Shown one piece after another: positions 1 to 12,448 of a stretch of DNA of 57,119 nt (the first letter of the stretch is position 1; each line of letters begins with the position of its first letter). The stretch is taken from positions 1-57,119 of IMG/VR virus record IMGVR_UViG_3300046025_000059; one strand, given 5' to 3'. The DNA comes from a virus. Lineage: Duplodnaviria > Caudoviricetes. The notes under the pieces are model-generated. The model saw nothing but the letters and a program-made list of their open reading frames with translations. It made no database searches and was not told where the DNA came from. A program made the position numbers and the translations under genes.

Positions 1-300
1 ATGAGTGAGCGGTGCGACACACCCGCTTGCTACCGTGAGGCGGTCGTGCAAGTCAGAGGGACGCGTCCGATCAAATGGAGCGACGACGAACTATCAGCTT
101 CTTCGTGGGAAGATGAAGGGGTTGCTGCTTGCGTGCCCTGTGCAGCCATGTTTGAGCAAGGGTCTGGAAGCATCACTAATGAGGTCCAATGGGAGATTCT
201 TGATAACCCATCCAGAGCAGGAATTGAGAAGGTGAGGGAAATTCTGCTGTCGAAAGAACGCAGAGTTAACTCGGACACGGAGTGTGGTAGCGATGAGTGA
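1..300 (+). CDS. Hypothetical small Cys-rich protein
   Basis: ORF with CxxxxC and CxxC; stop overlaps the next start. Confidence 0.6.
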   Translation: MSERCDTPACYREAVVQVRGTRPIKWSDDELSASSWEDEGVAACVPCAAMFEQGSGSITNEVQWEILDNPSRAGIEKVREILLSKERRVNSDTECGSDE

Positions 301-664
301 GCAGTCTACGAGCGGGATGTGTCGGTCCACTCTCGACAAGCTGGAGAAAGGGGACCTATTTACCGTTGACTGTCATGAAGAGACGCTCCAGGTCCATTCC
401 GACGGCCCGTTTGTGGGGGCAGTCATCCTCAACGCCTACGATGATTCCGGCGCTCAATGGACTGTTGCTGATGTTGACGGTGATCTCTATCTTGGGTATT
501 CGCAGACCTCGCCCATAGACGATCAGCCCCGAGCCAAGGAGATCGGGTCTGTCTCGATGCTGGATGACACTGAACAGACAACCTTAGTTACAGCCACCGA
601 CGGCGGAAACGGGCGGTATGTAGACACGGGTACTGACTACATCGCGGGTGAGGATGATGTCTAA
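293..664 (+). CDS. Hypothetical protein (cassette-like: MSEQSTSG ... RYVDTGTDY)
   Basis: Acidic ORF; ATG 293 overlaps upstream gene end; begins and ends with the recurrent boundary motifs. Confidence 0.7.
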   Translation: MSEQSTSGMCRSTLDKLEKGDLFTVDCHEETLQVHSDGPFVGAVILNAYDDSGAQWTVADVDGDLYLGYSQTSPIDDQPRAKEIGSVSMLDDTEQTTLVTATDGGNGRYVDTGTDYIAGEDDV

Positions 665-2387
665 CCGGCGACGCCCGGACGACACGGTGCGGGCGGTTGA
701 CCTGTTCTGCGGGGCGGGCGGCCTCTCGGCGGGCCTCGCACTGGCCTGTGAACAGCTAGATCGGGACGTCGAACTCGCGGCGGTCAACCACTGGGGGACC
801 GCCATAGAGACGCACAAACAGAATCACCCGTGGGCGGACCACTACAACGCCAAGGTCGAAGAACTGGACCCCCGCGAGGTGTATCCCGGCGAGCGCGTCG
901 GCATCCTGACGGCTGCCCCGGAGTGTACTCACTTCAGTACGGCGCGTGGCGGGCGCCCGGTCAACGAACAGAAGCGCGCGAGTCCGTGGCACGTCTTGGA
1001 GTGGCTGCAGAAGTTGTACGTTGACAATTTCCTGATCGAAAATGTTCCTGAATTTATCGATTGGGGTCCTGTCGGCGCGGACGGCACGCCTATGCAGTCC
1101 AAGAAGGGCGAGACGTTCGAGGCGTGGATCAACGCGATTCACTCGCTGGGCTACTCGGTTGACTGGCAGGTGCTGAACGCCGCCGACTACGGCGACGCCA
1201 CGTCACGCGAACGCCTGTTCATCGTCGGGCGACGCCAGCACCGCCCGGAGTTCCCTGATCCCTCCCACAGCGAGGCCGGCGACCAGCCGGGCACCCGCCC
1301 GTGGCGGCCGGCCGCCGAGATCATCGACTGGTCGGCCCCCGGGAAGAGTATCTGGACGCGCTCGCGACCGCTGGTGAACAACACAATGCAGCGCATCGCC
1401 GAGGGCATCCGCCGCCACGGCAGTGACCGCCTCGAACGGGTCGCCGACGTGGTCGGCAGTCTCGGCAAGGACGACGTCGAAGCCCTGCAGGAGCGGGTGG
1501 TGCCAGCGTCGAAGGCCCATTTCGCCGCTGAGGCGCTTGACAGTCCGTTCTTCGTGCGCGCCGAGGCCGCGGTCGGTCAGCCGGTCGCACCACATCTCGT
1601 CAAGTACTACGGGACGTCGACGGCGCGGCCGCTCGACGCACCGGTTGACACGATTACGGCCAATGGTCAGAAGTTCGGCCTGTGCGTGCCGTACCTGCTG
1701 GGCCAGCAGTCGAACGCGCTGCCCCTGCGCGTCGATCAGGACCCGGTGCCGACCATCGCCACCCGCGGGGCGATTAGCAAGATCACACCGCAGCCGTTCG
1801 TACTGCCGCGCAACGGCTACCACCGCGGCCTGCACAGCAACCCGGCCTACGATCCGGCCGCTCGCCCACTGCACACGGTGACGGCCAAGAACACTGACGG
1901 TCACGTCGTGCGCCCGACGCTCATGCAGTTCTCGCACGGCGGCAAGCTACTCGACGAGGATGCCCCGCTACCGACGATCACGACGGCGAAGGGTGGGGTG
2001 TTCGCCACCTCGCAGCCGTACCTGATCGAATATTACGGCAACGGACAGGCCCAACCACTCACGGAGCCACTGCCGACGGTGACGACGAAAGATCGGTTCG
2101 CGTTGGTCGTGCCCGAGTGCTACCCCCTGGGGATCAACATTCGGTACCGGATGTTACAACCCCGCGAACTGGCGGCGGCGATGGGGTTCCCATCGGACTA
2201 CGAGTTCTGCGGCACCCAAACCGAGACGACCGAGCAGATCGGCAACGCGGTGCCCGTGAATCTCGCGCAGGCACTGTGCGAACGCCTACTGGAAGGTGAC
2301 GACCCGACGCTGTGCAGCTATACGGACGACCCGCCACCGGCGGCGACTGACGGCGGCACCGAGGAGGTGAGCGACAATGACGAGTGA
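657..2387 (+). CDS. dcm: DNA (cytosine-5) methyltransferase
   Basis: Motif I DLFCGAGG, catalytic APEC, ENV, motif VIII TSRERLF, motif IX RMLQPRELAAAMGFP, motif X QIGNAVP. Confidence 0.95.
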   Translation: MSNRRRPDDTVRAVDLFCGAGGLSAGLALACEQLDRDVELAAVNHWGTAIETHKQNHPWADHYNAKVEELDPREVYPGERVGILTAAPECTHFSTARGGRPVNEQKRASPWHVLEWLQKLYVDNFLIENVPEFIDWGPVGADGTPMQSKKGETFEAWINAIHSLGYSVDWQVLNAADYGDATSRERLFIVGRRQHRPEFPDPSHSEAGDQPGTRPWRPAAEIIDWSAPGKSIWTRSRPLVNNTMQRIAEGIRRHGSDRLERVADVVGSLGKDDVEALQERVVPASKAHFAAEALDSPFFVRAEAAVGQPVAPHLVKYYGTSTARPLDAPVDTITANGQKFGLCVPYLLGQQSNALPLRVDQDPVPTIATRGAISKITPQPFVLPRNGYHRGLHSNPAYDPAARPLHTVTAKNTDGHVVRPTLMQFSHGGKLLDEDAPLPTITTAKGGVFATSQPYLIEYYGNGQAQPLTEPLPTVTTKDRFALVVPECYPLGINIRYRMLQPRELAAAMGFPSDYEFCGTQTETTEQIGNAVPVNLAQALCERLLEGDDPTLCSYTDDPPPAATDGGTEEVSDNDE

Positions 2388-2586
2388 GCAGTCTACGAGC
2401 GGAACGTACCGAGCCGAGTGCGTCTGTGGCTGGTCGTTAGAGCGGGACAAGCGAGCGTCGAATCTCCCTCAAGAGAACAATAAAAAGATCACGCGCGCTG
2501 TTGCCTCGATCCACGAGACTCGACCTCGTTTTGGCGACAGGGCCGATGAAACACACGCTGTGTCCTTCTCAGGAGGTGTGCGGTAG
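2377..2586 (+). CDS. Small CxC/His protein
   Basis: ECVCGW ... H; GGAGGTGA SD upstream; starts with MTSEQSTSGT motif. Confidence 0.65.
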   Translation: MTSEQSTSGTYRAECVCGWSLERDKRASNLPQENNKKITRAVASIHETRPRFGDRADETHAVSFSGGVR

Positions 2587-3486
2587 ATGGCACTCTCTGC
2601 ATTTCCCTGGCCCGGTGGGAAAACCCACTACATCAGCCAGATCCTGCCGTTCTTCCCTCAGCACCGTCGCTACGTTGAGCCGTTCGGCGGATCCGCGGCG
2701 CTGCTGCTGAACAAGCCCAAGAGCTACGTCGAAGTGTTCAACGACCTTGACGACGATGTGGTCCACTTCTTCCGCACTCTTCGTGAGCAGCGCGAAGAGT
2801 TACAGGAGTGGCTTCGGACGGTCCCCTACAGCGAAAGCTTGCACGAACAGTGGCAGGACGAATACTTCGACGATCACCGACCCGAAGACGATGTCGAGCG
2901 CGCCGGTCGCTGGCTGTTCCTCCGCTGTACGACCTACGGTGGCTCGGCTGGTCGACGCGCCGGCTTCAAGCGAGCCAGAAAGCGAAATGAGGCGCGATCG
3001 TTTCGGGGCAATGTCGACAACCTCACGGCAATCGTCGACCGCTTCCAAGAGGTCACGATTGCGAACGAGGATTACCGGACGGTGCTGGACCGCTACGACC
3101 ACGAGGAGACGCTGTTCTACATCGATCCGCCGTACGTCGACGTGGGTGAGCGGTACTATCCGGCCGCCGACAGCTTCGATTTCGAGGCGTTCGTCGACGC
3201 GCTTCGCGATCGTGACGGCTACTGGATCGTCTCGTCGGGCAACCTCCCCGACGGGTTGGTGGAGATCGCGACGACGACCTGCCAGTTCACGGCTCGGTAC
3301 TCGCTTCCAAACGCCAATTCCGAAGAGCGACAAGAGGAGGCCGAACACTTGTCGATGAACTTCGATCCAGAAGAGGAGCCGGAGTTTCTCGGCCAGCAGA
3401 GCACTTTGTTTGAAGCGACGGACGGCGGAAATGACCGGTGGTTAGACACCGCCACTGACTACAGCGGGGGTGAGGACGATGCCTGA
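2587..3486 (+). CDS. dam: DNA adenine methyltransferase (Dam/D12 class)
   Basis: FPWPGGK, YVEPFGGSA, EVFNDLD, catalytic YIDPPY; specificity not determinable. Confidence 0.92.
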   Translation: MALSAFPWPGGKTHYISQILPFFPQHRRYVEPFGGSAALLLNKPKSYVEVFNDLDDDVVHFFRTLREQREELQEWLRTVPYSESLHEQWQDEYFDDHRPEDDVERAGRWLFLRCTTYGGSAGRRAGFKRARKRNEARSFRGNVDNLTAIVDRFQEVTIANEDYRTVLDRYDHEETLFYIDPPYVDVGERYYPAADSFDFEAFVDALRDRDGYWIVSSGNLPDGLVEIATTTCQFTARYSLPNANSEERQEEAEHLSMNFDPEEEPEFLGQQSTLFEATDGGNDRWLDTATDYSGGEDDA

Positions 3487-4762
3487 CGCCAGCGTCGACT
3501 GGCGCTACGCCAAGCATCCCTATCTGCCGGGTGCCCGCGAGACGGTCGCCGCGATGGACATCGACGTTGGCGAGATCATCGCCGGGGGGCACGCCGCGGT
3601 CGACCGCGCTAGCCAGCGCGTCCAGGCGGTGATTGACGAGGGCACCACCGGCACACCCGTCCGCGACGCTTGCGTCGAACTGCTGTCGTATCCCATCGCG
3701 CGCATCCTCGTCTCACTCGCGGACGAACCCGCGCTGCGAGAGCGCCACCCCCGCGCTGAGGCCGCCACGGCCACTGACCGGTTACAGGCTGCCGCGGAAA
3801 CGTCGCTGTCGTCGACGGCCCGAACCACAATCGACGACGTACTGCCGGCGCTAGATCTCAGCGAGAGCATCGACCGGACGGGCGAGACGCCCCGCGTCGC
3901 GGTCGGTGCGTATCTGGATCTCGCGCCAGATGCTCCCGACTGGGCGCTGGTCGAACGCCCGGTCGCCGATGGCTGGGTGGTGCTGGCCGACGCCGACGAG
4001 GTGGCCCACCTCGTTGAGCGCGCCATCGAACGCCGGGTGGCCGGGGGACTGCCCGTCGACGTGCCGGAGGCGCTGGCCGCGGCACTGGCCGACGAGATGG
4101 CCGTGATCAACGGTAAACTGGCCCCGCCGGATCCGCCGACTGTGGCCGCCGGCGCGCTGGACGGGTTCACCTACCCCTGTCCGGCCTGCCGGTCGGCCAC
4201 GGTGTTCCACGCACCGCGCTGCCGGTTCGCCGCCCACGACCGCGAGGCCATCCAGCAGGCGTACGTCGGCATCGCAGCCATTCTTGACGCCGGGGCGCGT
4301 GACCGGGACGCCCTGCGTGAGACGCTGGGCAGGCCGTGGATGCCGCTGCACGACGCCGCGCTGGACGCGCTTGAACGCGAGTATCGTGTCGACGAGCGCG
4401 ACGACGGCACGTACGCGCTGCTGGAGGCTGAGGAACGCGAAGAGCGGTTGCTGGTGCCGTCCCACGACGCCCTGCGGACGATCTACGAACAGGGGAGCGT
4501 ACCAGGTGCCCACGACAACAGCGTGTTCGCACTAATCAGCTACTACGAGATGGTGGGTTTGGACTGGGAGACGACGCGCGAGGCGATGCTGGACTGGTTG
4601 CACGACAGCGGGACGTGGGAACGCGGCGGGTTCGATGAATCGTCGCCGGAGGCCCTGCTCACAACCAAAAAGCATGTCTTCGAAGAGGGCTATGGATGGA
4701 AAGACAAGGCGCGCGCGGCCGCGCGCGTGATTGAGCGGGCCAGCATCCACTCGGGGGAGTGA
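3479..4762 (+). CDS. Primase large subunit (PriL) N-terminal domain fused to a Cys/His and helical C-terminal region
   Basis: YAKHPYLPGARE and ELLSYPIARILVS resemble haloarchaeal PriL; after a Pro linker, YPCPACR...H...C replaces the usual Fe-S domain. Confidence 0.7.
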   Translation: MPDASVDWRYAKHPYLPGARETVAAMDIDVGEIIAGGHAAVDRASQRVQAVIDEGTTGTPVRDACVELLSYPIARILVSLADEPALRERHPRAEAATATDRLQAAAETSLSSTARTTIDDVLPALDLSESIDRTGETPRVAVGAYLDLAPDAPDWALVERPVADGWVVLADADEVAHLVERAIERRVAGGLPVDVPEALAAALADEMAVINGKLAPPDPPTVAAGALDGFTYPCPACRSATVFHAPRCRFAAHDREAIQQAYVGIAAILDAGARDRDALRETLGRPWMPLHDAALDALEREYRVDERDDGTYALLEAEEREERLLVPSHDALRTIYEQGSVPGAHDNSVFALISYYEMVGLDWETTREAMLDWLHDSGTWERGGFDESSPEALLTTKKHVFEEGYGWKDKARAAARVIERASIHSGE

Positions 4763-4766
4763 TACC

Positions 4767-5141
4767 ATGACAGAGACACCACCAGATCGACCGAACTACC
4801 CAGTGGTCCACGAGGACCTGACCGACCGTGCGAAAGCCACTGAGACGCCGGTGGCTGTGACCGAGGACAAACGCCACCGCGTGGTCTGCCGGGCGGCACA
4901 GGAGGCCGACGGCGTCGTCTGGCTGGCGAAGATCGAACACAGCGAGCGGGCGGACGGCGCCCCGTCGGTGGGGTTCCAGCGCTGCCACATCGACGCCGAC
5001 CACAACTCGCTCCGCAAGTGGTCGTCGGTTGCCACCGGCCGACTGTCGGGGCCGCAACGACTGCCGGCATGGGAACGGCTGTTCACGGTGTTCAACGCTG
5101 CGCTGCACGAGTACAATCGGGAGGTGCGTGCCCGTGATTGA
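4767..5141 (+). CDS. Hypothetical protein
   Basis: ATG after GGGGAGTGA SD; tightly packed in operon. Confidence 0.7.
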   Translation: MTETPPDRPNYPVVHEDLTDRAKATETPVAVTEDKRHRVVCRAAQEADGVVWLAKIEHSERADGAPSVGFQRCHIDADHNSLRKWSSVATGRLSGPQRLPAWERLFTVFNAALHEYNREVRARD

Positions 5142-5316
5142 CATCCGCCCCGCGCTAAAGCACGGGGGGTTCTCCTCACACTGTCGTAACGATCAGTGCC
5201 CCGAGTGTGAGAGCAAAGCCACCTCCCTCGTGATCCGGGCGGTCGACCGACGCGAGGTGTGGGGGAGGGCGCAGGTGGTCGAGTGCGACGACTGTTCGCA
5301 CAGGTGGTCGGTGTGA
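5134..5316 (+). CDS. Small Zn-ribbon protein
   Basis: GTG after GGAGGTG; CPEC...CDDC. Confidence 0.6.
   Translation: MIDIRPALKHGGFSSHCRNDQCPECESKATSLVIRAVDRREVWGRAQVVECDDCSHRWSV
5138..5177 (-). repeat. IS200/IS605 right-end-like hairpin remnant
   Basis: ttgacatccgccccgcgctaaagcacggggggttctcctc; TGA is the stop of 4767..5141; similar to copies at 47463 and 56064. Confidence 0.75.
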
Positions 5317-5615
5317 GTGACACGTCCGACGAGGGCGGGAAGTGGATCTGTCCGGATCATGGCCGCGTCGCCAGTGGTGGGCGGCAACACGGCGGCCGCG
5401 CCCGCGCCCACGTCTGCGGTGAAGATGGGTGTACTCGGACAGTGAAACGTGCGGACGTCGATTGGGACGCCTACCACTCCGCCCGTGAGAACGGCGAACG
5501 GCCGCCTTGCCCGCGCTGTGGGTCGACTGAGATCACGAAAGTCCCGGTCACAGGGGACCCGTTCCGGTGTTCTGACTGCAGCCACGCGTTTGGCGATGCT
5601 GGGGGGTGGTATTGA
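5313..5615 (+). CDS. Double Zn-finger protein
   Basis: CPDH..HVCxxxxC and CPRC..CSDC; GTGA overlap. Confidence 0.7.
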   Translation: MSDTSDEGGKWICPDHGRVASGGRQHGGRARAHVCGEDGCTRTVKRADVDWDAYHSARENGERPPCPRCGSTEITKVPVTGDPFRCSDCSHAFGDAGGWY

Positions 5616-5857
5616 TGCCTCGCCCCCAGACCTACCGCGATGTCGACCTCCCCGACGAGTGGGTCGACTGGCCGCCCGACGCGCAGGTGAACTACCTCGC
5701 GTCGGTGATGGATCGGGACGGCCTGCTCGAACTGGTCGGCGACCTCGCGGACATCCCCGACGACGAGATCGGCGCGCAGTCGATCCACAAGACCGGCCTC
5801 GCGCAACTGATCGTCGCCCTCGGCGTCTGCGACCACCCTGAGAGGTGTGAGCAATGA
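5615..5857 (+). CDS. Hypothetical protein
   Basis: TGATG overlap; acidic. Confidence 0.7.
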   Translation: MPRPQTYRDVDLPDEWVDWPPDAQVNYLASVMDRDGLLELVGDLADIPDDEIGAQSIHKTGLAQLIVALGVCDHPERCEQ

Positions 5858-6420
5858 ATAGCGACAAGGCTGCTGCCGTGCGCGATTCGATCAACGGCTG
5901 CCCGGACGTCGTCGACCCCGAGGACACCAGCGAGTACAGCACGTCACGCATGACATACTCGCCGGTAGCGGACGCCGACGTCACGTACACCGGCGAGTTC
6001 CTCAAGCCCGATCGGTCGTGCTACCGCCCGGCGTACGTCGAGCAGAGCGGCACCATTGGCGACGGCGAGGGCGCGACCCGCCCGGTCTACGTGGTCGTGC
6101 TTGAACCGCTGTGGCACCAGTCCGACGACGTCCGGTTGCTCTCGCCGGAACTGGTCTACGAGATTGCCAAGCACGACTGCCGGATCAGGTTCTACCCGCC
6201 CGAGCATCGCCTCGGCGGTGCAATCTGGGTGACGGACCGCTTCACAGAGGATCTGACGAACACAGACGGCGAGCGCTGCGAGTGCGGCAGTACGTACTTC
6301 AAGATCCGCGACGGGACACCCGAGTGCGCCAAGTGCGGTGCCCCTACCGAACAGACCGACAGTGCGCAGTTGACACTCACTGCAGCCCAGTACGCCGGAG
6401 GTGATGCCGATGCCGAGTGA
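5854..6420 (+). CDS. Hypothetical protein with C-terminal Zn ribbon
   Basis: ATGA overlap; CECG...CAKC. Confidence 0.75.
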   Translation: MNSDKAAAVRDSINGCPDVVDPEDTSEYSTSRMTYSPVADADVTYTGEFLKPDRSCYRPAYVEQSGTIGDGEGATRPVYVVVLEPLWHQSDDVRLLSPELVYEIAKHDCRIRFYPPEHRLGGAIWVTDRFTEDLTNTDGERCECGSTYFKIRDGTPECAKCGAPTEQTDSAQLTLTAAQYAGGDADAE

Positions 6421-6601
6421 TGCCGACGCCCACGAGTGGGTCCGTGTTGACACGCTCGCGTGGGAGACGGGCATCGACCGGCTGGACGAACAGCACCAGA
6501 CGGCCGTCTACGACTGTGACGAGTGCGAGGCGCGGCGCTGGACGCGCGAACGGCGGACGGCTACGCTGTCGTCGTTTGGGGGTGATGCCGATGTCGAGTG
6601 A
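6410..6601 (+). CDS. Small HxW/CxxC protein
   Basis: GGAGGTGA SD; HEW...CDEC. Confidence 0.6.
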   Translation: MPSDADAHEWVRVDTLAWETGIDRLDEQHQTAVYDCDECEARRWTRERRTATLSSFGGDADVE

Positions 6602-6776
6602 CGTCGACGACAGCGAGAGCGTCGACCTGACAGGCCACGCGCCGGTCGACAACTGCGAGCGGTGTGGGCGCTCGCCCGCGATGGAACCGTTACAGGAGGC
6701 CGACGGCGACTGGCTCTGTCTGGTCTGCCACGACCGCGTGACGAACGAACCCGATCTCGGGAGTGGGGGCGCGTGA
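6591..6776 (+). CDS. Small Zn-finger protein
   Basis: CERC...CLVC; GGGGTGA SD. Confidence 0.65.
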   Translation: MSSDVDDSESVDLTGHAPVDNCERCGRSPAMEPLQEADGDWLCLVCHDRVTNEPDLGSGGA

Positions 6777-6940
6777 CCGAGCAATCCACAGATGGGGCCG
6801 ACCGCTGCAACAGATGTGGGGATGGAGAGCAAGTAGCGGGTTGGGGTGTTTGCTCAGAGTGTTTTCGGGGCGATTGCCTCCGTCTCGCCCGTTCTATAGA
6901 GGCAGGCACTGCCTGCGACGGGGGTGACGACGACACATGA
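6773..6940 (+). CDS. Small Zn-finger protein
   Basis: GTGA overlap; MTEQSTDGADR start motif; CNRC...CSEC. Confidence 0.6.
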   Translation: MTEQSTDGADRCNRCGDGEQVAGWGVCSECFRGDCLRLARSIEAGTACDGGDDDT

Positions 6941-7443
6941 TCGGCTGGACGCGCGGCAAGCCCCCGCCCCATCGCACATCGCACTGTTGCACCGCCCGCG
7001 AACTGACGACGCCCATCCGATCACGACCCAAGCACATGACGCCCGATACAAACAGCCAGCCCGAATCGTCCGAAGCGGTCACGACCGATGTCCTGCGCCC
7101 GACCGTCAAGACACTCATCGACGCACTCACCACCGAACTCGCCGACGAGATTGCCTGCGCCATCGTCAACGATGCGGACGGCCTTGACCTCCGCGAAGTC
7201 ACGTCGAAGGGCCACATCGACGGCCACCCCCAAATCGAACTGCGGTGTGCGGCCTGGTCGGACCAGCCGGCGACCCACGCCACCGAGTATGACTGTGCCG
7301 ACGCCGACGGCAAGTGCGACTGTGATGTCGACATCCGGCCCCTCGCCCGGATCGACCTGCGCGAGTACAGCGCTGACTCGCTGGTCACGTTCGTCGTCCG
7401 GAATCTCAGCACGGACTCGTTCGAGGATCTAGCTCATGAGTGA
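6937..7443 (+). CDS. Hypothetical protein (start may be 7036)
   Basis: ATGA overlap; acidic C-terminal two-thirds. Confidence 0.65.
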   Translation: MIGWTRGKPPPHRTSHCCTARELTTPIRSRPKHMTPDTNSQPESSEAVTTDVLRPTVKTLIDALTTELADEIACAIVNDADGLDLREVTSKGHIDGHPQIELRCAAWSDQPATHATEYDCADADGKCDCDVDIRPLARIDLREYSADSLVTFVVRNLSTDSFEDLAHE

Positions 7444-7672
7444 CGAGTCTCCCGAACCAACGGTGCTGGACGCGGTCGAAGCACCGGACGCCCGGCGGTG
7501 TCAGATGTGGATCGGTAACGCCGAGACGCCTACCCGCTGTGACAACCCCGCCGAGTGGCTGTTCGTCTACGATGGCACCACCGGGCCGGGCGTTCCCAAG
7601 CCCCGCAACGCGTTTGCGTGCGGCCAGTGTTTCGCCCCGCCCGAGGATCTCTCGCGCAATGGTGACACATGA
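7436..7672 (+). CDS. Small Cys-rich protein
   Basis: RCQ...RCDNPA...CGQC. Confidence 0.65.
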   Translation: MSDESPEPTVLDAVEAPDARRCQMWIGNAETPTRCDNPAEWLFVYDGTTGPGVPKPRNAFACGQCFAPPEDLSRNGDT

Positions 7673-8010
7673 AGTACGCCTTACGCTTTGCTCCCGCCGA
7701 GTCGGCAACGGTCGATGCGCCGCTGTGGCTCTGGTGGCACGAAGACGGCGCGTACTACTGCGAACGCCAAGAACTGTACTACCCCGACGGGCCGCCCCGG
7801 CCGTCGAAACACCGCCCGCACTATGTCGTTAAAGAGGCCCCGCCGCGGTTCATCGATACGATGCTAGATGCGGGCCTCACCAGCGCCGTCGAACGCATCC
7901 CGTTCACCGACGTGCCCGAACAGATGCGTGATCACGACCCAAGCGAGGTGCTGGGCGACCCGCTGTGGATCACCGACGTCGACAATGAAGCCAGAGGTGA
8001 CGACGCATGA
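7669..8010 (+). CDS. Hypothetical protein
   Basis: ATGA overlaps at both ends. Confidence 0.7.
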   Translation: MKYALRFAPAESATVDAPLWLWWHEDGAYYCERQELYYPDGPPRPSKHRPHYVVKEAPPRFIDTMLDAGLTSAVERIPFTDVPEQMRDHDPSEVLGDPLWITDVDNEARGDDA

Positions 8011-8273
8011 CCGATCAACCCGCAAACGGAATTGACCCTAAGCGACATCTCGCCTACGGCCGTCCCGAGCCAGTCGCGGCTACTGAGTGCGTCAACGACG
8101 AAGAGTGTAGCTACGAAAACTGTGACGAGCCGGCAGACTACTGCGTTGAATTTCGGCAGCAGGACGGCGATGAGTCAGCTGTCGTAGCTATTTGTGACGG
8201 CTGCTCACAAACGAACCGCATCTGGGTATGTGAAAATGAACTGCTTAACTGTGAGGTGAGTCGCAATGTCTGA
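8007..8273 (+). CDS. Small Cys-rich protein
   Basis: CSYENCDEPA...CDGC; looks lower in GC. Confidence 0.65.
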   Translation: MTDQPANGIDPKRHLAYGRPEPVAATECVNDEECSYENCDEPADYCVEFRQQDGDESAVVAICDGCSQTNRIWVCENELLNCEVSRNV

Positions 8274-8544
8274 GGACGGCACTGAGCAGATAGAGCAGTA
8301 CGACAGACCCCTCGATGCGCTGGCTCACCGACTGTGGACTCACTGGAGCCAGCACATCGCCGACGAAGAGGATATCAGCGAGCAGCGGCTACAGCGGTGG
8401 CGAAACCTCTGGGTTCCTTACGATGGACTACCGGAAGAGGACAAGGACACCGACCGCCGGCTCGTTGAACGATTTTGCGAGGAGGAACCGGATTACGAGC
8501 GGTCGGTACACACGGGAAGCGACCACAACGGAGGCGATCCGTAA
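8266..8544 (+). CDS. RyR-domain-like small protein
   Basis: AHRLWTHW...VPYDGLPEEDKDTDR resembles the RyR repeat signature found in phage proteins. Confidence 0.6.
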   Translation: MSEDGTEQIEQYDRPLDALAHRLWTHWSQHIADEEDISEQRLQRWRNLWVPYDGLPEEDKDTDRRLVERFCEEEPDYERSVHTGSDHNGGDP

Positions 8545-8569
8545 TGTTCGGAGGCCTGGGTGATCGTTA

Positions 8570-9346
8570 ATGGCGTGGCCGTCCTTCGACACGCCTCAAC
8601 AACGGGTCATCGCTGAACCGATAGATCCGCAACCTGCCGCCGTGCTCAAATACGAATGCCCGGCCGACGGCTGTACCACCCGATCGGGTACCGAACGCGG
8701 CTGTCGGCTACACCTCTCGCGGGGTCACGGGAGCGATCGCAACAGGGCAACACTCGCCTGCCAGCAGTGTGGCGATACGTTCACCGTGAAACGGTCACGG
8801 GCCGACACGGCAGCGTACTGTTCGAACGAGTGCCGATGTCGCGCCGGGTGTGCTCCTGCCGAGCCGGAGATCGTCGCACCACCGCCAGAACCAGAACCAG
8901 TCGCCGAGGTTCAGTACGCCTGCCCAATCGACGGCTGTGAGTTCCACGGGCCGACGATCGGCGGTGTTCGGCGGCACGCGACGGACCTTCACGACGGCGC
9001 TGGACAGGCGACGCTCGAATGTCTCCGGTGTGGCGACGCGTTCACCCGGAAGGCATCACACGCCGATGAAGCGCGCTACTGCTCCCATGAGTGTAAAGAC
9101 GCCGCCCGCGAGCGCCGCGTCGAACGCACCTGTGAGTGGTGCAACACCGAGTTCGAGACGTTCGAGTGCCATGCCGACGCCCGGTTTTGTAGCCTGTCCT
9201 GCCGCCGTGAAGCAGACGGGACAGTACTCGGTCCTAGCCAGCCTGTCCCAGACTTGTCGGTGGTCCGGCCAGCAGAGGTCGGTCTCTCACCACTTGGCAG
9301 TGCAACGATCCCCAGCAATATCCCACACAAACCACACTCACAATGA
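8570..9346 (+). CDS. Tandem Zn-finger protein (C2H2 plus CxxC-YCS repeats)
   Basis: Two CP.DGC...H...H fingers and three CxxC..F...[YF]CSxxC units; no HNH domain visible. Confidence 0.75.
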   Translation: MAWPSFDTPQQRVIAEPIDPQPAAVLKYECPADGCTTRSGTERGCRLHLSRGHGSDRNRATLACQQCGDTFTVKRSRADTAAYCSNECRCRAGCAPAEPEIVAPPPEPEPVAEVQYACPIDGCEFHGPTIGGVRRHATDLHDGAGQATLECLRCGDAFTRKASHADEARYCSHECKDAARERRVERTCEWCNTEFETFECHADARFCSLSCRREADGTVLGPSQPVPDLSVVRPAEVGLSPLGSATIPSNIPHKPHSQ

Positions 9347-10074
9347 CAGACCAACCCACTGACGATAGCGGACGAGTTGAAACGTTTGCCAACACATATC
9401 TCGCTGCGATCCGGTGTGCAGAGTCTGTGCAGGCGGGCATCGAAGCCGCGAACGCATACCTCCAGCGGCGGTTCGCAGCCTCGGTCACCGGCGACACCAT
9501 CCAGCCGACCACGGAAGCTGGCGAAGAACTTCATGCGCTCAATCTCGGGTTCGATACCGAGTACGATTCCCATCTCATCGGGCAGGGCTTGGAGAAAGTC
9601 GTGAACAAACTCTACGGAGAGACGGGGTCGTACTACACACCCGAGGAGATGGTTGCGTTCATGGTCGAGCGGACAGTACACCTGAAGATTCTCGACGAGA
9701 TTGGCGCGTCGGATGCCGACACCGTTGACGAGTGGCTGCAAACGGCATCGGACGCAGCGATCGCCAACGCGCTCGAATCGATCCGCGACCTGTCGGTCTG
9801 CGACCCAGCCTGTGGGAGCGGGCACTTTCTCATCGGTGCACTCGATGAGCTCGTCCGAATACAACTGGCCTGCCACCACCGACTCGGCAACGACGTGCAG
9901 GACTGGCGGATTGCGAAACGGACGGCAGAACGGAACATCTACGGCGTCGATCTCGTCGGCGAGGCGGTCGCAATGTCGAAGCTCCGAGTGCGGTTGTACG
10001 TCCTCAGGCGACTCCCTGAACACCTGGCAGCCCAGTACGCCACACCCGATACTCGTGAGGTCGTCGTCGCATGA
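9343..10074 (+). CDS. Truncated N6-adenine MTase (type IIG/Eco57I-like SAM-binding half)
   Basis: GSYYTPE, VCDPACGSGHFL, NIYGVDL present; stops before any NPPY catalytic motif. Confidence 0.75.
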   Translation: MTDQPTDDSGRVETFANTYLAAIRCAESVQAGIEAANAYLQRRFAASVTGDTIQPTTEAGEELHALNLGFDTEYDSHLIGQGLEKVVNKLYGETGSYYTPEEMVAFMVERTVHLKILDEIGASDADTVDEWLQTASDAAIANALESIRDLSVCDPACGSGHFLIGALDELVRIQLACHHRLGNDVQDWRIAKRTAERNIYGVDLVGEAVAMSKLRVRLYVLRRLPEHLAAQYATPDTREVVVA

Positions 10075-10424
10075 GTGTCCCTTGGCCGTCCGAAGGGCCG
10101 CGAAAAGCGAACGGTGTAGCCGACCATTACGAGTACTTGCCCGACCGGAGCGACATTTCCGCAGGTGTACATCGGTGTACGATCTGTGGCGACCTAATCC
10201 ACACCACAAAGCGCGTCCGCGAGCATGGGTGTACCCCCGAGATGACCTGTCCGGTCTGTGGTGAAGCCGTGCGACCGCACTGGACGCCAGGACTGACTGA
10301 TCCCCCAGTCAACGTCTGCGAAACCTGTGGCTATCAGTTTACAAACACCACATCAGCAAATAGCGAAGACCCGCGTTCAGTACGTGCGGGAGCCGACCAG
10401 ATGGAGGCGGATCGGGATGTCTGA
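10071..10424 (+). CDS. Zn-finger protein
   Basis: CTIC..H.C, CPVC..CETC; ends RSVRAGADQ boundary motif. Confidence 0.7.
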   Translation: MSVPWPSEGPRKANGVADHYEYLPDRSDISAGVHRCTICGDLIHTTKRVREHGCTPEMTCPVCGEAVRPHWTPGLTDPPVNVCETCGYQFTNTTSANSEDPRSVRAGADQMEADRDV

Positions 10425-10456
10425 GGACGGTACCGAACGATTCACCCCAGTTGTCG

Positions 10457-10505
10457 GGTACAGGCTGTACCGATACCTTTATGGTGTAGGGGGTACAAGT
10501 TGTGC
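10457..10505 (+). promoter_or_regulatory. Putative promoter with flanking palindromic operators
   Basis: GGTACAG-G-CTGTACC (10457-10471), TTTATG (10478-10483), GTACAAGTTGTGC (10493-10505), upstream of ATG 10524. Confidence 0.6.
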
Positions 10506-10523
10506 ATGTAGGAGGAAGACACA

Positions 10524-10871
10524 ATGTCCGACATCACCCACCTCGTTGACGAACCGACCGTGGTCGAATCTGATGGTAGCGTCGAAGTCGACCGCTGGCA
10601 GAAATACGGCCACGACCGCCTCTACCTGGATGTCGGGACGGGTCATGCAATCCCCCGCGCGGCAGATTCGTACATCAACCTGCAGGAAGGCGAGGTCGTC
10701 GTTGACATGCCCGACCACATCAGCCGGTCGCCCGATGTCCGCCTGGATGTCGACAGCGACGGCGTCGCCACGGTCACGAAGCACTGGGGCGACGACAACA
10801 GCAAAGCCATCTTGGTTATCGACCTATTCGGAAATGGTCGGGAGGTCGCTGCGCCGGAGGTTGGGGCCTAA
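10524..10871 (+). CDS. Hypothetical protein, paralog of N-terminal domain of 34483..35598
   Basis: RWQKYGHDRLYL / ATVTKHW / VIDLF vs RWTKYGKDRVYL / ATITKHW / VVDLF. Confidence 0.8.
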   Translation: MSDITHLVDEPTVVESDGSVEVDRWQKYGHDRLYLDVGTGHAIPRAADSYINLQEGEVVVDMPDHISRSPDVRLDVDSDGVATVTKHWGDDNSKAILVIDLFGNGREVAAPEVGA

Positions 10872-10873
10872 CG

Positions 10874-11191
10874 ATGGCCGAGTACGTTTGCCCCTTCTGC
10901 GGAGACACGAACGCCGAGTCGTCGGACTCGGAGGAACTAGACCTTATGATGGAGTGCCCGCGCTGTGGTGGCACGCATCTGCATCGGCGGTATCCAGACG
11001 CGCTCGACGAACTCTCCGCGCAAGACTTGGCCGAACTCATCGACGACGGACTCACATGGCCCGAGGCGGGCGACTACCTGATGACCGAAGTCGGCCCCTT
11101 CTCGCAGAATCGCTGGGCGGTTCGCCGAGACGTCAATCAACAGTCGATCAGCGAGAACGTCGCCAAGGCCCGCGACAAGATCGACGAGTAG
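10874..11191 (+). CDS. Zn-ribbon plus HTH regulator
   Basis: CPFC..CPRC then SQNRWAVRRDVNQQSISENVAKAR (HTH-like); paralog of C-terminus of 34483..35598. Confidence 0.8.
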   Translation: MAEYVCPFCGDTNAESSDSEELDLMMECPRCGGTHLHRRYPDALDELSAQDLAELIDDGLTWPEAGDYLMTEVGPFSQNRWAVRRDVNQQSISENVAKARDKIDE

Positions 11192-11260
11192 ACTTTCGTT
11201 CACTCCGTCGGACGCGAAACGACCGTTCAGTAGACACGGGCACTGACTATCCGAGGGGTG

Positions 11261-11494
11261 ATGGCGGTGAGTCACACTGACGAGACGTACCTGGATGCAG
11301 TCGGTCGCCTGCACACCACCGGGACGACCGACACCTGTGGCGGCGTCACGGCAAAGGCGGTGGCGACCGACCTGAACGTCCCGGCGTCGACGGCCCGCGG
11401 ACGACTCCGCAGTCTCGCGGCGGACGGCCAGTTAAACGAACAGTGGTGTCCGTTCCCCCGCCAGCACCGGAGTTACCGCCCCGTGTCGATCTGA
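11261..11494 (+). CDS. Winged HTH protein
   Basis: VTAKAVATDLNVPASTARGRLRSLAADGQL; start 11261 or GTG 11267. Confidence 0.7.
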   Translation: MAVSHTDETYLDAVGRLHTTGTTDTCGGVTAKAVATDLNVPASTARGRLRSLAADGQLNEQWCPFPRQHRSYRPVSI

Positions 11495-11782
11495 TTCATT
11501 TCCACGCGGTTCCCGTTGTGCAAGAAAGTCGCGCAGACAGAACGTATTTGGGGCGTTGGGGTTGTATGTTGTGGCAAGCCCGACGGCGAGTGGTCCCGTG
11601 CGTCGGCCCTCTATGTACATGCCACGCGTTAAGAGCGCGTGGCCGGATAGCATGTCGTGTCTCCTGTGCCTCACCACGGTGAGACGTGCCGCCGTACACC
11701 TCGTCAGGGCGAACAGTCCACACACCTCACCTATCCACGTCTACAGCGCCCGTGCCAGTCCGCGCGCAGTCCAGTACCACCT

Positions 11783-12448
11783 ATGTCCACCACAGCCACC
11801 CACAGTCAGCCATGCTACGACTGCAATCGCTGCGAGGTGAAGTACCGCCCGCAAGACGAGTACCGTGCCGGGTTCTGTTCGAGCGCCTGCTACGGAGCGT
11901 CCCTCTCAACCGGGATTCTGGACACGCTCGAACACGACCATCGCTACTGCTTGAACTGTTTTCGCAAACTCAAGACCGTCTACCCGCCGGGGCGCAGCCT
12001 GCGCTCGTCGGAAGTCTACGCCGACTCGCCCGACGACAACGGGGCGACCATGACCGACATCCCCGATTTTGTCATCGGGCGGGCCTATCCCCGCCCAGAG
12101 ACACAGGACGCCCACGAGGCGGAAGTGCTACGCCCACGTGATCCGGTCGCCGGTGACTGGACGCATGAACCGGTTGATGGCGTCGCCCGGTCACGCGCCG
12201 TCTGCGAGTGTGGCGTGATGCACCACCGCAGTCGGTTCCCCGCCATCCGCGCCCGGCGGCTCACCGAGTATGCCTCACACCTCTCGACGGCCGTTCGCAA
12301 GCTCTTGCACGAGGATGAACACGACCACACGCACGACCCGGCTGTCCTCGAACAGGAACTGGCCGACGCCTACCTAGATCTTAACGCCGAGTGGCAACGC
12401 CGCCAGATCGCCCGCGCGCTTGGGCAAGCCATCCTCGCGACCGAGTGA
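11783..12448 (+). CDS. Hypothetical Zn-binding protein
   Basis: CNRC..FCSSAC, HDHRYCLNC, CECG motifs. Confidence 0.7.
   Translation: MSTTATHSQPCYDCNRCEVKYRPQDEYRAGFCSSACYGASLSTGILDTLEHDHRYCLNCFRKLKTVYPPGRSLRSSEVYADSPDDNGATMTDIPDFVIGRAYPRPETQDAHEAEVLRPRDPVAGDWTHEPVDGVARSRAVCECGVMHHRSRFPAIRARRLTEYASHLSTAVRKLLHEDEHDHTHDPAVLEQELADAYLDLNAEWQRRQIARALGQAILATE

What the first reader, a model, noticed from the sequence alone, without database searches (positions are those of the whole stretch)
259..11250. In-frame left/right boundary motifs bracket early accessory genes: candidate integron-like cassette exchange system
Seen: a right (R) motif near gene ends, cgNtcRgt-N10-acYgacNaN followed by the next SD. 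Copies: 614 cggtatgtagacacgggtactgactac, 3436 cggtggttagacaccgccactgactac, 8500 cggtcggtacacacgggaagcgaccac, 10374 cgttcagtacgtgcgggagccgaccag, 11224 cgttcagtagacacgggcactgactat, and a weak one at 259. The best copies are imperfect palindromes with a 10-bp asymmetric spacer (TCAGT-N10-ACTGA; GGTCGGT-N10-AGCGACC). A left (L) motif sits at gene starts: gagtgagcagtctacgagcgg is identical at 295 and 2382, atgtctgaggacgg(c/t)ac(t/c)ga is at 8266 and 10417, and weaker copies are at 6773, 8007 and 9343. L shares the ggNacYga half with R. L...R pairs enclose unrelated cargo: 293-640, 2377-3462 (Zn finger plus Dam), 8266-8526 (RyR-like) and 10417-11250. In the last unit both motifs lie outside the cargo ORFs, so the conservation looks DNA-level rather than peptide-level. 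Established: inverted arms around an asymmetric spacer typify tyrosine-recombinase sites. Inference: these are recombination sites that swap genes while keeping translational coupling, with the recombinase encoded elsewhere.
Basis: partly seen in the sequence, partly recalled or inferred. Interest (0 to 1): 0.85.

Follow-up and report, generated by a model that had tools for sequence, protein, structure and literature searches.

The report
Portable gene-junction adapters in a halovirus
Short conserved sequences that end one small gene and start the next mark where this provirus of a salt-loving archaeon gains, loses and swaps accessory genes, more likely by ordinary recombination than by an integron-like enzyme.

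Summary
Five R copies and two pairs of L copies are real, non-random and confined to the early region.

All R copies are read in frame, 5-9 codons before a stop. They are the distal half of a roughly 30-residue C-terminal tail: a PIP-like box, TDGG, the R peptide R.VDTGTD., then an SD-coded GG[ED] end. I found this tail on unrelated proteins in 16 haloarchaeal genome loci, 3 metagenome loci and 58 database proteins. Most are DNA methyltransferases of four families.

L is a recurrent N-terminal head, MSEQS.SGT[ED]R.

A 98-99% identical contig from the same halite study differs by four indels in 12 kb. All eight ends lie at heads, tails or junction repeats. One indel leaves an empty L-R shell, and an independent protein confirms another.

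Rare codons inside the motifs are conserved, so the DNA itself is constrained.

The proposed inverted arms show no covariation. Breakpoints fall at different positions within R. No recombinase is in the record.

Verdict: cassette boundaries yes, integron-like mechanism not supported. This scan noted similar portable junctions before on other archaeal-virus DNA.

The parts
575..664 (+). Full C-terminal tail of gene 293-664: PIP-like EQTTLV, TDGGN, R copy 1 (614-640), SD-coded AGEDDV and the stop, which overlaps the Dcm start at 654.
   Evidence: tail HMM 54.0 bits; D2.
3397..3486 (+). Full tail of the D12 Dam gene 2587-3486: QQSTLFEA, TDGGN, R copy 2 (3436-3462), GGEDDA and the stop, which overlaps the start at 3479.
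   Evidence: PCNA docking model.
8500..8526 (+). R copy 3 (RSVHTGSDH), the tail of gene 8266-8544, without the PIP/TDGG part.
10374..10400 (+). R copy 4 (RSVRAGADQ), the tail of zinc-ribbon gene 10071-10424, followed directly by L at 10417.
   Evidence: D12.
11224..11250 (+). R copy 5, untranslated, lying between 11191 and the start at 11258. It is the right breakpoint of indel D (at 11237).
259..285 (+). Weak R-like copy (RRVNSDTE) at the end of ORF 1-300.
   Evidence: Read. It is not found by the pattern.
2338..2387 (+). Half tail of the C5 methyltransferase 654-2387 (AATDGGTEEVSDNDE*). Left breakpoint of indel A, after 2359.
292..320 (+). L type 1, copy 1: stop/start overlap ATGAGTGA plus head MSEQSTSG.
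   Evidence: (D15).
2379..2407 (+). L type 1, copy 2 (MTSEQSTSGTYR). Breakpoint of joint B, at 2399.
8253..8285 (+). L type 2, copy 1: SD plus MSEDGTE.
   Evidence: D12.
10404..10436 (+). L type 2, copy 2. It starts the non-coding shell frame 10417-11280.
6397..6442 (+). Junction repeat D6, copy 1 (GGDADAE*/MPSDADA). Left breakpoint of indel C, at 6420.
6578..6623 (+). Junction repeat D6, copy 2 (GGDADVE*/MSSDVDD). Right breakpoint of indel C, at 6589.
8007..8029 (+). Weak head MTDQPANG. Left breakpoint of indel D, at 8029.
2360..3464 (+). Cassette present here and absent from the relative: SD, L, zinc-finger ORF, Dam and its tail.
   Evidence: clean skip of 1105 nt, side 255. (P0059 ends ...ATDGGTGGEDDA).
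8030..11236 (+). A 3207-nt block of seven genes that the relative replaces with 792 nt.
   Evidence: side 155.
10417..11280 (+). Shell: an open but non-coding frame from head MSEDGTE to tail RSVDTGTDY. It encloses genes 10524-10871 and 10874-11191, which are read in other frames.
   Evidence: GC3 0.55 against 0.77 and 0.79.

Best explanation
L and R are the two ends of portable gene-junction adapters. Each adapter is a stereotyped stretch. It finishes the upstream gene with a hydrophilic tail peptide, carries the Shine-Dalgarno sequence, places the stop over the next start, and opens the next gene with a short head peptide. The adapter is shared at the DNA level by otherwise unrelated accessory genes.

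Accessory genes, above all DNA methyltransferases, are gained, lost and exchanged between co-circulating haloarchaeal viruses by recombination inside these adapters. A swap therefore keeps reading frame and translational coupling. The exchange is most likely homology-guided (short homologous or microhomology recombination) and not the work of a dedicated site-specific recombinase.

The proximal part of the long tails is a separate, protein-level feature: a PIP-like box that probably tethers the viral methyltransferases to the host sliding clamp PCNA.

Shown: the motifs, their in-frame reading, their spread over families and genomes, the nucleotide-level constraint, and breakpoints in the adapters.

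Inferred: that the adapters promote the exchanges, that the recombination is homologous, and that the tail binds PCNA.
For: 1. Motifs are non-random and sit at junctions.

2. Population evidence. A 13,390-nt contig of run X2 matches the window with 13-65 differences per 1.4-3.0 kb piece. It differs by four indels, and 8 of 8 ends lie within -50 to +25 of a start codon. Such windows cover about 16% of the region (nominal P 4e-7). Six of the 8 ends lie in repeat families D1, D2, D6 and D15, which with D12 cover 3.9% of 12 kb (nominal P 9e-8).
- A: 2359->3465, a clean 1105-nt skip that removes SD, L, zinc-finger ORF, Dam and tail.
- B: 2399->620, L abutting R copy 1.
- C: 6420->6589, 168 nt replaced by 1051 nt.
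- D: 8029->11237, 3207 nt replaced by 792 nt.
Joint A predicts a Dcm ending ...ATDGGTGGEDDA. P0059 (98% identical, JGI source) ends exactly so.

3. The adapters are portable.
- The tail profile finds C-terminal copies in haloarchaeal genomes.
- It finds 58 proteins at E <= 0.01: 21 PF02086, 5 PF05869, 4 PF00145, 3 PF20314, 2 PF23859, 1 PF01507 and 22 without a family.
- One tail-bearing locus protein is an N6_N4 methylase.
- Among 120 Dam homologs, 30 carry TDGG, about 7 carry the R peptide and about 7 carry a head. The six closest (73-88% identity) show five different C-terminal arrangements.

4. Nucleotide-level constraint, measured in copies found by a protein profile: TTA 10/16, GTT 11/13, GCA 9/14, GGA 12/19, ACT 11/13 and GTA 5/6. 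Gene-wide use of these codons is 3-17%. Neighbouring Ala, Thr and Asp codons vary freely. Heads in five other genomes share ATG AGT GAG CAG TCT ..G AGC GGn ACT GAn CGn.

5. The adapter logic fits translation.
- ATGAGTGAG gives TGA in both other frames (sequence reading).
- 13/19 tails carry stops in both other frames, against 16% of body windows.
- 12 of 17 tails are followed by an ATGA or GTGA overlap.

6. PCNA docking model. Score 0.74, best of 3 controls 0.02. That mark was reached by 58 of 80 solved complexes and 2 of 110 mismatched pairs. These counts hold only roughly, because my own alignment was used. The runs agree in at least 63% of contacts, and the partner's pLDDT is at least 47. 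The interface is tail residues 7-17 (LGQQSTLFEAT). PIP-PCNA complexes have been solved, so the pass shows likeness to them and does not show binding.
Against: - Only one close relative, from one study, was available, as Logan contigs whose letters I could not read. Joint B rests on a 34-nt side at 80% likeness.
- Identical stretches are short (21-29 nt). Whether they suffice for homologous recombination in this host or virus is unknown.
- Selection for intact genes alone would also leave indel ends near gene borders.
- Homology-guided exchange does not explain why particular codons stay fixed across different genomes while neighbours drift. Some direct function of the DNA or RNA must exist, and I could not name it.
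- L and R share an 11-nt core, GGNACTGANCG, and an L-R fusion exists. Both would also fit a site-specific mechanism.
- The sequences are not phylogenetically independent, so the binomial P values are nominal.
Confidence: 0.55

Rival explanations
1. Dedicated site-specific cassette exchange. A recombinase encoded elsewhere recognises a core shared by L and R, and inserts or excises head-cargo-tail units.
For: - L and R share the core GGNACTGANCG, with the rare codon ACT kept in both, in several genomes.
- The relative has L fused to R, which looks like an empty site.
- GTCTAC in L and GTAGAC in R are inverted. One locus, L009, has a perfect GTGTCTAC-N8-GTAGACAC.
- Tyrosine integrases lie directly downstream of the tail in 2 of the 10 downstream genes scanned (L115, L121).
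- Nucleotide blocks are conserved across genomes.
Against: - No consensus fold is predicted.
- Breakpoints lie before GTAGAC, after GTAGACA and 2 nt past R. They do not share one position.
- The L-R joint keeps the R-specific part and loses the L copy of the core. That is not the product of an exchange at the core.
- No PF00589, PF00239 or PF01797 match in the record, although it is about 55% complete.
- 8 of the 10 downstream genes scanned are not recombinases.
- In other genomes the head keeps only GTCT of the left arm.
Confidence: 0.12
2. The motifs are conserved only for what they do in expression and in the protein: SD, stop/start coupling, PIP-like tail. Indels arise by random illegitimate recombination, and selection keeps those at gene borders. 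The adapters mark exchanges but do not promote them.
For: - Most conserved blocks have a translational reading: TDGG[ED] matches an SD-like GACGGAGGTGA, and there are ATGA/GTGA overlaps and off-frame stops.
- A PIP-like box is general in Dam and Dcm homologs that lack the R peptide.
- Termination-reinitiation at overlapping gene pairs is documented in Haloferax volcanii (PMC6728339, search listing with the start of the abstract only).
Against: - Six of 8 breakpoints fall in the few repeated junction families (3.9% of the region), not merely at any gene border.
- R copy 5 and L at 10417 survive untranslated around a replaced interior.
- The same 75-90-nt tail is attached to at least six unrelated families. 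That requires the tail DNA itself to have moved.
Confidence: 0.2
3. The tail is an embedded regulatory cassette, like a PeSL. TTAGTTGCA would act as a TATA-like box, and about 27 nt downstream the first two bases of R (CG, CA or TG, always pyrimidine-purine) would be the transcription start. R plus the SD would then be the leader of the next gene. This could coexist with the best explanation.
For: - The fixed rare codons make an AT-rich block at a constant 30 nt before R.
- The odd R/H/C alternation keeps a Y-R dinucleotide.
- The two tails without any extension use ordinary CTC, while all 14 tails with an extension use TTA, TTG or CTA (Fisher P 0.008 on n = 2).
- Short R copies have T-rich boxes at about the same spacing: 8473, 11193 and 10338 (read).
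- Promoters inside upstream genes are reported for H. volcanii (PMC4983044, passages).
Against: - TTAGTT does not fit the haloarchaeal TTWT box, and there is no CGAAA-like BRE next to it (consensus as quoted in PMC4983044).
- 5 of 17 tails end an operon with no coupled gene behind them.
- The tail goes with the identity of the upstream gene (methyltransferases), not the downstream gene.
- No stem-loop is supported.
Confidence: 0.15

Closest known systems
PeSL (promoter-early stem-loop) cassettes of T4-type phages phi1 and RB49 (Arbiol et al. 2010, PMC2839356; abstract and outline read)
   Same: Short conserved cassettes at the borders of small non-essential genes in a variable early region. 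Insertions, deletions and replacements between two very close relatives end in the cassettes. Exchange is attributed to recombination between cassette copies.
   Different: PeSLs are intergenic promoter-plus-terminator units. Here the repeats lie inside coding sequence, read in frame as the tail and head of the flanking proteins. They work, as far as I can read, at the level of translation. No stem-loop is supported, promoter activity is untested, and mini-circles are untested.
Conserved motif in front of most left-arm ORFs of halovirus HGTV-1 (Sencilo et al. 2013, known to me only from one passage in the review PMC3950731)
   Same: A haloarchaeal tailed virus with a repeated motif at gene starts, proposed to regulate transcription and to drive genome shuffling.
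   Different: That motif is described as a TATA-like region plus an inverted repeat preceding ORFs. I could not read the primary paper and did not compare the sequences. I fetched only the first 30 kb of HGTV-1, which are structural genes.
Integron cassettes (attI/attC with IntI). Recalled knowledge, no paper read.
   Same: Promoterless accessory genes in one orientation, bounded by recurring sites. An empty site exists in a relative.
   Different: No integrase was found next to the array. There is no conserved folded palindrome. Breakpoints are not at one position. The sites are translated.
Translational coupling by termination-reinitiation at overlapping gene pairs (Huber et al. 2019, PMC6728339; search listing with the start of the abstract only)
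   Same: ATGA, GTGA and longer stop/start overlaps, with an SD inside the upstream gene's end.
   Different: That work concerns expression. Here the same junctions are repeated between unrelated genes and coincide with indel ends.
PIP box of archaeal replication and repair proteins (QxxLxxFx, as quoted in the review PMC7776575, passages)
   Same: A C-terminal Q-x-x-L motif. Long forms here read QSGLEDYF, QRPLSDHF and QQFLTESF. Many Dam homologs end QTGLGDF, QSELQSF or QTGLESF. The model places the motif on PCNA with score 0.74 against 0.02 for the best control.
   Different: It is carried by DNA methyltransferases of mobile elements. I found no paper reporting this. The window's short form lacks the two aromatic residues, and 20 further residues follow it.
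Boundary or 'linker' sequences of lambdoid phages, and the Susskind-Botstein module model. Recalled knowledge, no paper read.
   Same: Short conserved sequences at gene borders, proposed as crossover points for module exchange.
   Different: Those belong to bacterial phages, and the idea remains contested against random recombination plus selection. Here the linkers are coding and are also found far outside the virus's own group.

Membership tests
Integron (attC/attI cassette system) | IntI-type tyrosine recombinase next to the cassette array | tested here: not met
   No PF00589 match in the 57-kb record at E <= 0.01. The record is about 55% complete, so a gene elsewhere is not excluded.
Integron (attC/attI cassette system) | Cassette-end sites that are imperfect palindromes, with structure conserved while sequence varies | tested here: not met
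   On 19 R copies, 60.0% of cells are paired against 59.9% in shuffles, and covariation is 0.054 against 0.090. RNAalifold predicts 0 pairs on 17 tails.
Integron (attC/attI cassette system) | Exchange at one fixed position in a core site | tested here: not met
   Breakpoints at 620, 11237 and 3465 lie at three different positions relative to R. These are aligner breakpoints on contigs, so their resolution is limited.
Integron (attC/attI cassette system) | Excised circular cassettes | not testable with these tools
   This needs inverse PCR or long reads from an induced culture.
PeSL-like mobile junction cassettes | A repeated short motif at the borders of small accessory genes in a variable region | tested here: met
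PeSL-like mobile junction cassettes | Indels between close relatives end in the motif copies | tested here: met
   Eight of 8 ends lie at junction modules and 6 of 8 in repeat families. Joint A is confirmed by P0059. Only one relative was available.
PeSL-like mobile junction cassettes | Promoter activity of the cassette | not testable with these tools
   No RNA holder is listed. A TATA-like reading is possible but does not match the published consensus.
PeSL-like mobile junction cassettes | Stem-loop (terminator) in the cassette | tested here: not met
PIP-box clamp-binding motif | Q-x-x-[LIM]-x-x-aromatic motif near the C-terminus | tested here: inconclusive
   Long-form tails and many Dam homologs fit. 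The window's copies read QSTLFEA and QTTLVTA, which lack the aromatic pair.
PIP-box clamp-binding motif | Binds the PCNA pocket formed by the interdomain connecting loop and the C-terminal tail (this naming of the pocket is recalled knowledge) | tested here: inconclusive
   Model only: score 0.74 against 0.02 for the best control. PCNA contacts are residues 39, 42-46, 120, 122, 151, 194, 196, 221-222, 239 and 241-246, and tail contacts are residues 7-17. The pass may reflect likeness to solved complexes.
Termination-reinitiation gene pairs | Stop and start codons overlap, with an SD a few bases upstream | tested here: met
   Sequence reading. 12 of 17 tails are followed by ATGA or GTGA overlaps.

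The most novel reading that the evidence does not exclude
Haloarchaeal viruses, proviruses and plasmids share one in-frame 'expression adapter' system. Genes, chiefly DNA methyltransferases, would travel as head-cargo-tail units. A still unidentified recombination activity would insert them at the common core GGNACTGANCG of an otherwise empty mini-ORF (MSEQSTS-VDTGTDY...). That mini-ORF would supply the start, the stop and the coupling to the next gene. The tail would also dock the cargo on the host sliding clamp. This would be an archaeal, translation-level counterpart of the integron.
Probability: 0.12. Interest if true: 0.85.

Novelty: new variant of a known kind. Interest (0 to 1): 0.62.

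Why it matters
How viruses shuffle accessory genes without wrecking tightly packed operons is an old question, usually framed as linker sequences against random recombination plus selection. This case offers three things that can be tested directly.

1. Two near-identical viruses in one community differ only by cassettes bounded by recognisable adapters.
2. The adapters are coding and keep frame and translational coupling, which explains how a swapped gene is expressed at once.
3. The same adapter DNA, with fixed rare codons, is attached to at least six unrelated protein families in many haloarchaeal genomes, so it moves on its own.

A by-product may interest replication and epigenetics researchers. 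DNA methyltransferases of haloarchaeal mobile elements from four families end in a PIP-like box. That suggests they ride on PCNA, as I recall DNMT1 does in eukaryotes. I found no paper reporting this.

Tried and rejected
- Megablast of 1-12000 against the phage collection found no match. Distant blastn found only methyltransferase pieces of phiH and phiHAP-1.
- An exact R scan of IMG/VR gave one chance hit in a low-GC phage.
- Relatives of the PriL-like gene: none in IMG/VR and one distant Natronomonas MAG locus.
- The search for related loci with alignment A4 on IMG/VR: 24 stretches matched the pattern, but none passed tblastn with so short a query.
- A degenerate TLV[AT]ATDGG DNA pattern gave 0 matches in IMG/VR. 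It gave 41 in the metagenome collection, of which only 3 are true tails.
- A pattern for an empty L-R site in IMG/VR gave one chance hit at 51% GC.
- 57 IMG/VR loci with Dcm relatives hold no tail.
- A tblastn of window proteins against the tail-bearing loci found only methyltransferases shared.
- The hairpin or RNA-structure reading is rejected.
- No RNA holder is listed for the window, so expression could not be examined.
- The order-level genome scan mostly repeated the class sample.
- The HGTV-1 comparison was not pursued beyond fetching its first 30 kb.
- Sencilo et al. 2013 is not held. Supplements were not consulted.
- The search of earlier findings by sequence returned nothing.
- I considered and dropped a tRNA-derived att site and a CRISPR-repeat likeness after reading the sequence. 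Neither was tested with a tool.
- My first codon tallies were slightly off. The report uses my recount of the rows: GCA 9/14, ACT 11/13, GTA 5/6.

Full report
What the window is. The window is a whole IMG/VR provirus record of 57,119 bases, with an estimated completeness of 55%. Its G+C is 0.60-0.69. DNA searches of the phage collection find only methyltransferase pieces of Halobacterium phage phiH and Halomonas phage phiHAP-1. Public runs that hold the window come from one halite metagenome study. Positions 1-11,500 are a one-strand row of about 25 small genes joined by stop/start overlaps. They include a C5 methyltransferase (654-2387), a D12 Dam (2587-3486), a DUF7474 protein (3479-4762) and a partial N6 methylase (9343-10074).

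The observation. A relaxed R consensus matches five times, all on the + strand and all in the first 11.3 kb. Shuffles give 0.4 on average. The two L types occur twice each. The repeat finder independently lists these junction repeats among the longest direct repeats of the region: D1, D2, D6, D12 and D15. A peptide pattern for R gave 7 hits over six frames. Five are the R copies, each in an open frame 5-9 codons before a stop, reading R-[YWS]-[VL]-[DHR]-[TA]-[GA]-[TSA]-D-[YHQ]. The other two hits (7062, 42109) look like chance. L at 10417 and R at 11224 begin and end a long open frame with GC3 0.55, and two real genes sit inside it in other frames.

R is part of a widespread tail. A DNA pattern scan of 401 haloarchaeal genomes gave 23 matches, against 13 for the reversed control (my count). 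Five of the 23 are true copies. Four sit at ORF ends (L008, L015, L028, L009). One is a CRISPR spacer between type I-B-like repeats in G051. The other 18 are unrelated, for example the subtilisin-like VVDTGTDY.

A profile of five tails was then searched in six frames over the same 401 genomes. In one search I examined ten non-seed places. Nine are C-terminal tails lying 0-17 residues from the stop, and one (L040) is not. Four weaker hits are not tails either. Together with a second scan and a local HMM, I hold 19 DNA copies: 2 from the window, 14 from genome loci and 3 from metagenome loci (the copies listed).

The consensus tail is [EQ]Q[QT]TL[VF]A[AT]-TDGG[NE]-x-[RHC]-x-[VL]-[DH]-T-[GDA]-T-[DE]-[RQHY]-..G..-stop.

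The carriers are unrelated:
- an N6_N4 methylase (L030);
- C5 methylases (L034, L038; L036 scores below the cut-off);
- D12 Dam (L032 and the window's gene);
- DUF6610 (L033);
- four proteins without a family.

The tail profile also retrieves 58 proteins from the large protein collection, which I read. They comprise 21 PF02086, 5 PF05869, 4 PF00145, 3 PF20314, 2 PF23859, 1 PF01507 and 22 without a family, one of which is the window's own protein. The first rows of the profile come from Dam proteins, which favours PF02086.

L is a recurrent head. Many tail-bearing proteins start M-S-E-Q-S-x-x-G-T-[ED]-R just before the conserved domain. In five other genomes the head is also alike as DNA: ATG AGT GAG CAG TCT ..G AGC GGn ACT GAn CGn. 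By sequence reading, ATGAGTGAG contains TGA in both other frames, so an upstream gene in either frame stops at the new start.

Heads and tails are add-ons to the protein body. Nearly all of the 120 closest Dam homologs end in Q-[ST]-[GT]-L-..-[FYV], a PIP-like box. Only 30 have TDGG, about 7 have the R peptide and about 7 have a head, by my patterns. The six closest homologs (73-88% identity) show five different C-terminal arrangements. Among 120 Dcm homologs, 36 have [TA]DGG in the last 42 residues and none has R. TDGG[ED] can be read as an SD-like GAC GGA GGT GA placed a few bases before an overlapping start. In the Halovivax-type copy (L127) it is exactly that. This SD reading is my inference.

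Peptide or DNA? The copies were found with a protein profile, so third codon positions are not biased by the search. They are strikingly fixed in some codons: Leu TTA 10/16, Val GTT 11/13, Ala GCA 9/14, second Gly GGA 12/19, distal Val GTA 5/6 and Thr ACT 11/13. Gene-wide use of these codons in the same ORFs is 3-17% (recounted; nominal P from 1e-5 to 4e-12). The sequences are related to one another, so these P values are nominal. The adjacent Ala, Thr, Asp and first Gly codons vary as expected. Ala/Thr/Pro alternate as GCA/ACA/CCA, and Arg/His/Cys alternate as CGN/CAC/TGT, which fits nucleotide constraint better than peptide constraint.

The DNA or RNA itself is therefore under constraint in the blocks TTAGTTGCA and (N)TAGACACGGnnACTGA. 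Part of this may be the creation of off-frame stops. 13 of 19 tails have stops in both other frames, against 16% of equally long windows in the gene bodies.

Pairing is 60.0% against 59.9% in shuffles, with covariation below the shuffles. RNAalifold predicts no pair.

The decisive comparison. Contigs of three runs from the halite study were laid on 1-12000. One 13,390-nt contig of X2 follows the window with 30 differences over 620-2359, 65 over 3465-6420 and 13 over 6589-8029. It differs by four structural changes:
- A. 2359->3465, a clean skip of 1105 nt (side 255). The SD, L copy 2, the zinc-finger ORF, Dam and its tail are absent. The left end is 2 nt after the TDGG codons of the Dcm half tail. 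The right end is 2 nt after R copy 2.
- B. 2399->620 (side 34 only). An L copy abuts R copy 1 at GTAGAC, so the body of gene 293-664 is missing and a head-tail mini-ORF remains.
- C. 6420->6589. Here 168 nt are replaced by 1051 nt, with both ends in the repeated junction D6.
- D. 8029->11237. Here 3207 nt are replaced by 792 nt. The left end follows the head MTDQPANG, and the right end lies in the middle of R copy 5.

Joint A predicts a Dcm ending ...PPPAATDGGTGGEDDA. The independent database protein P0059 (98% identical, 575 aa, JGI) ends exactly so. That also argues against an assembly artefact. The identical stretches are shorter than 31 bases. I recall, without having checked it here, that Logan assemblies use 31-base words, so such repeats should not cause false joins.

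Six of the eight ends lie in repeat families that cover 3.9% of the region. Two further joints from other contigs put an R-like sequence behind a divergent Dcm, and an L next to the distal half of R copy 4. Their sides are only 24-25 nt, and I give them little weight.

Mechanism. The specific mechanism does not gain support. The three breakpoints in or at R lie at different positions. The L-R joint is not the product expected from an exchange at the shared core. No dyad symmetry is conserved. The record holds no tyrosine, serine or Y1 recombinase, and the controls for these searches were positive. Of the ten downstream genes scanned in other genomes, two are tyrosine integrases (L115, L121), one is PCNA-like (L120, E 0.0034, below the cut-off), one is DUF6884 and six have no family. 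Recombination within the shared junction DNA, as proposed for PeSL cassettes of T4-type phages (PMC2839356, abstract), is the simplest reading. It is an inference and has not been shown.

A promoter reading of the AT-rich block, with R as the leader, is possible, but it fits the published haloarchaeal consensus poorly (PMC4983044, passages). It is also weakened by 5 of 17 tails that have no coupled gene behind them.

The PIP-like part. The model of the window's Dam tail with Halobacterium PCNA passed. The score is 0.74, and the best of 3 controls is 0.02. That mark was reached by 58 of 80 solved complexes and 2 of 110 mismatched pairs, counts that hold only roughly because my own alignment was used. 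The runs agree in at least 63% of contacts, and the partner's pLDDT is at least 47. The interface comprises tail residues 7-17 and PCNA residues 39, 42-46, 120, 122, 151, 194, 196, 221-222, 239 and 241-246. These include the PIP site as I recall it. Such complexes have been solved, so the pass shows likeness to them and does not show binding. The R part is not in the interface.

Comparison and novelty. Junction or regulatory cassettes that guide gene shuffling are known in T4-type phages. They have been suggested for halovirus HGTV-1 (passage in PMC3950731). This scan has noted portable stop/start junctions in other archaeal viruses. Those are unchecked AI notes, which I used as leads only.

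Three things are new here. The adapters are coding and kept in frame. The same tail DNA sits on many protein families and in many genomes, with fixed rare codons. An empty shell exists in a near-identical relative. I file the finding as a new variant of a known kind. The function of the conserved R block itself remains unexplained.

Noticed in passing
window 3397-3440; P0179-P0295, P0059-P0178: DNA methyltransferases of haloarchaeal mobile elements from four families (D12 Dam, PF05869 Dam, C5, N6_N4) end in PIP-like boxes such as QTGLGDF, QSELQSF, DPTLESF and QSGLEDYF. The window's Dam tail is modelled onto PCNA (score 0.74, best control 0.02). Two literature searches found no report of this.
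   Followed up: partly
L012 (G051:C2), about 1490-1530: A CRISPR spacer between repeats that I read as haloarchaeal type I-B matches the R motif plus the following SD. Elements that carry the conserved adapter are therefore CRISPR targets.
   Followed up: no
L120:10630-11445: The gene coupled directly behind a tail-bearing DUF6610 protein gives a weak PCNA_N match (E 0.0034, below the curated cut-off). It may be an element-encoded clamp next to a PIP-like tail.
   Followed up: no
L115:10936-11946 and L121:8736-9740 (- strand): Tyrosine integrases start by ATGA overlap directly behind tail-bearing C5 methyltransferases in two genomes.
   Followed up: partly
L009, about 1480-1520 (G204): A 40-codon zinc-ribbon-like micro-ORF ends in the R peptide. 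It contains a perfect 8-bp inverted repeat, GTGTCTAC-N8-GTAGACAC. The window's L has GTCTAC and its R has GTAGAC.
   Followed up: no
tail column after TDGGN-x, e.g. window 614-616 and 3436-3438: Arg, His and Cys alternate at one tail position as CGN, CAC and TGT. This always gives a pyrimidine-purine pair. It could mark a transcription start or reflect CpG decay.
   Followed up: no
window 3479-4762: The 427-residue protein behind the Dam cassette carries DUF7474 over residues 230-420 (E 5e-75). Its only relative in the species genome set is a Natronomonas MAG locus with 46% identity over the C-terminal half.
   Followed up: partly
window 9343-10074: A 243-residue ORF matches only the start of N6/MmeI-type methyltransferase domains, so it may be a truncated gene. 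It lies in the block that the relative replaces.
   Followed up: no
P0179 against window 3397-3483: An 88% identical Dam homolog keeps QQSTLFEA but then reads ADRENTRYGEPGAEHTEVSRR. This has the same length as the window's tail, yet almost every residue differs. The tail diverges much faster than the body, or it has been replaced.
   Followed up: no
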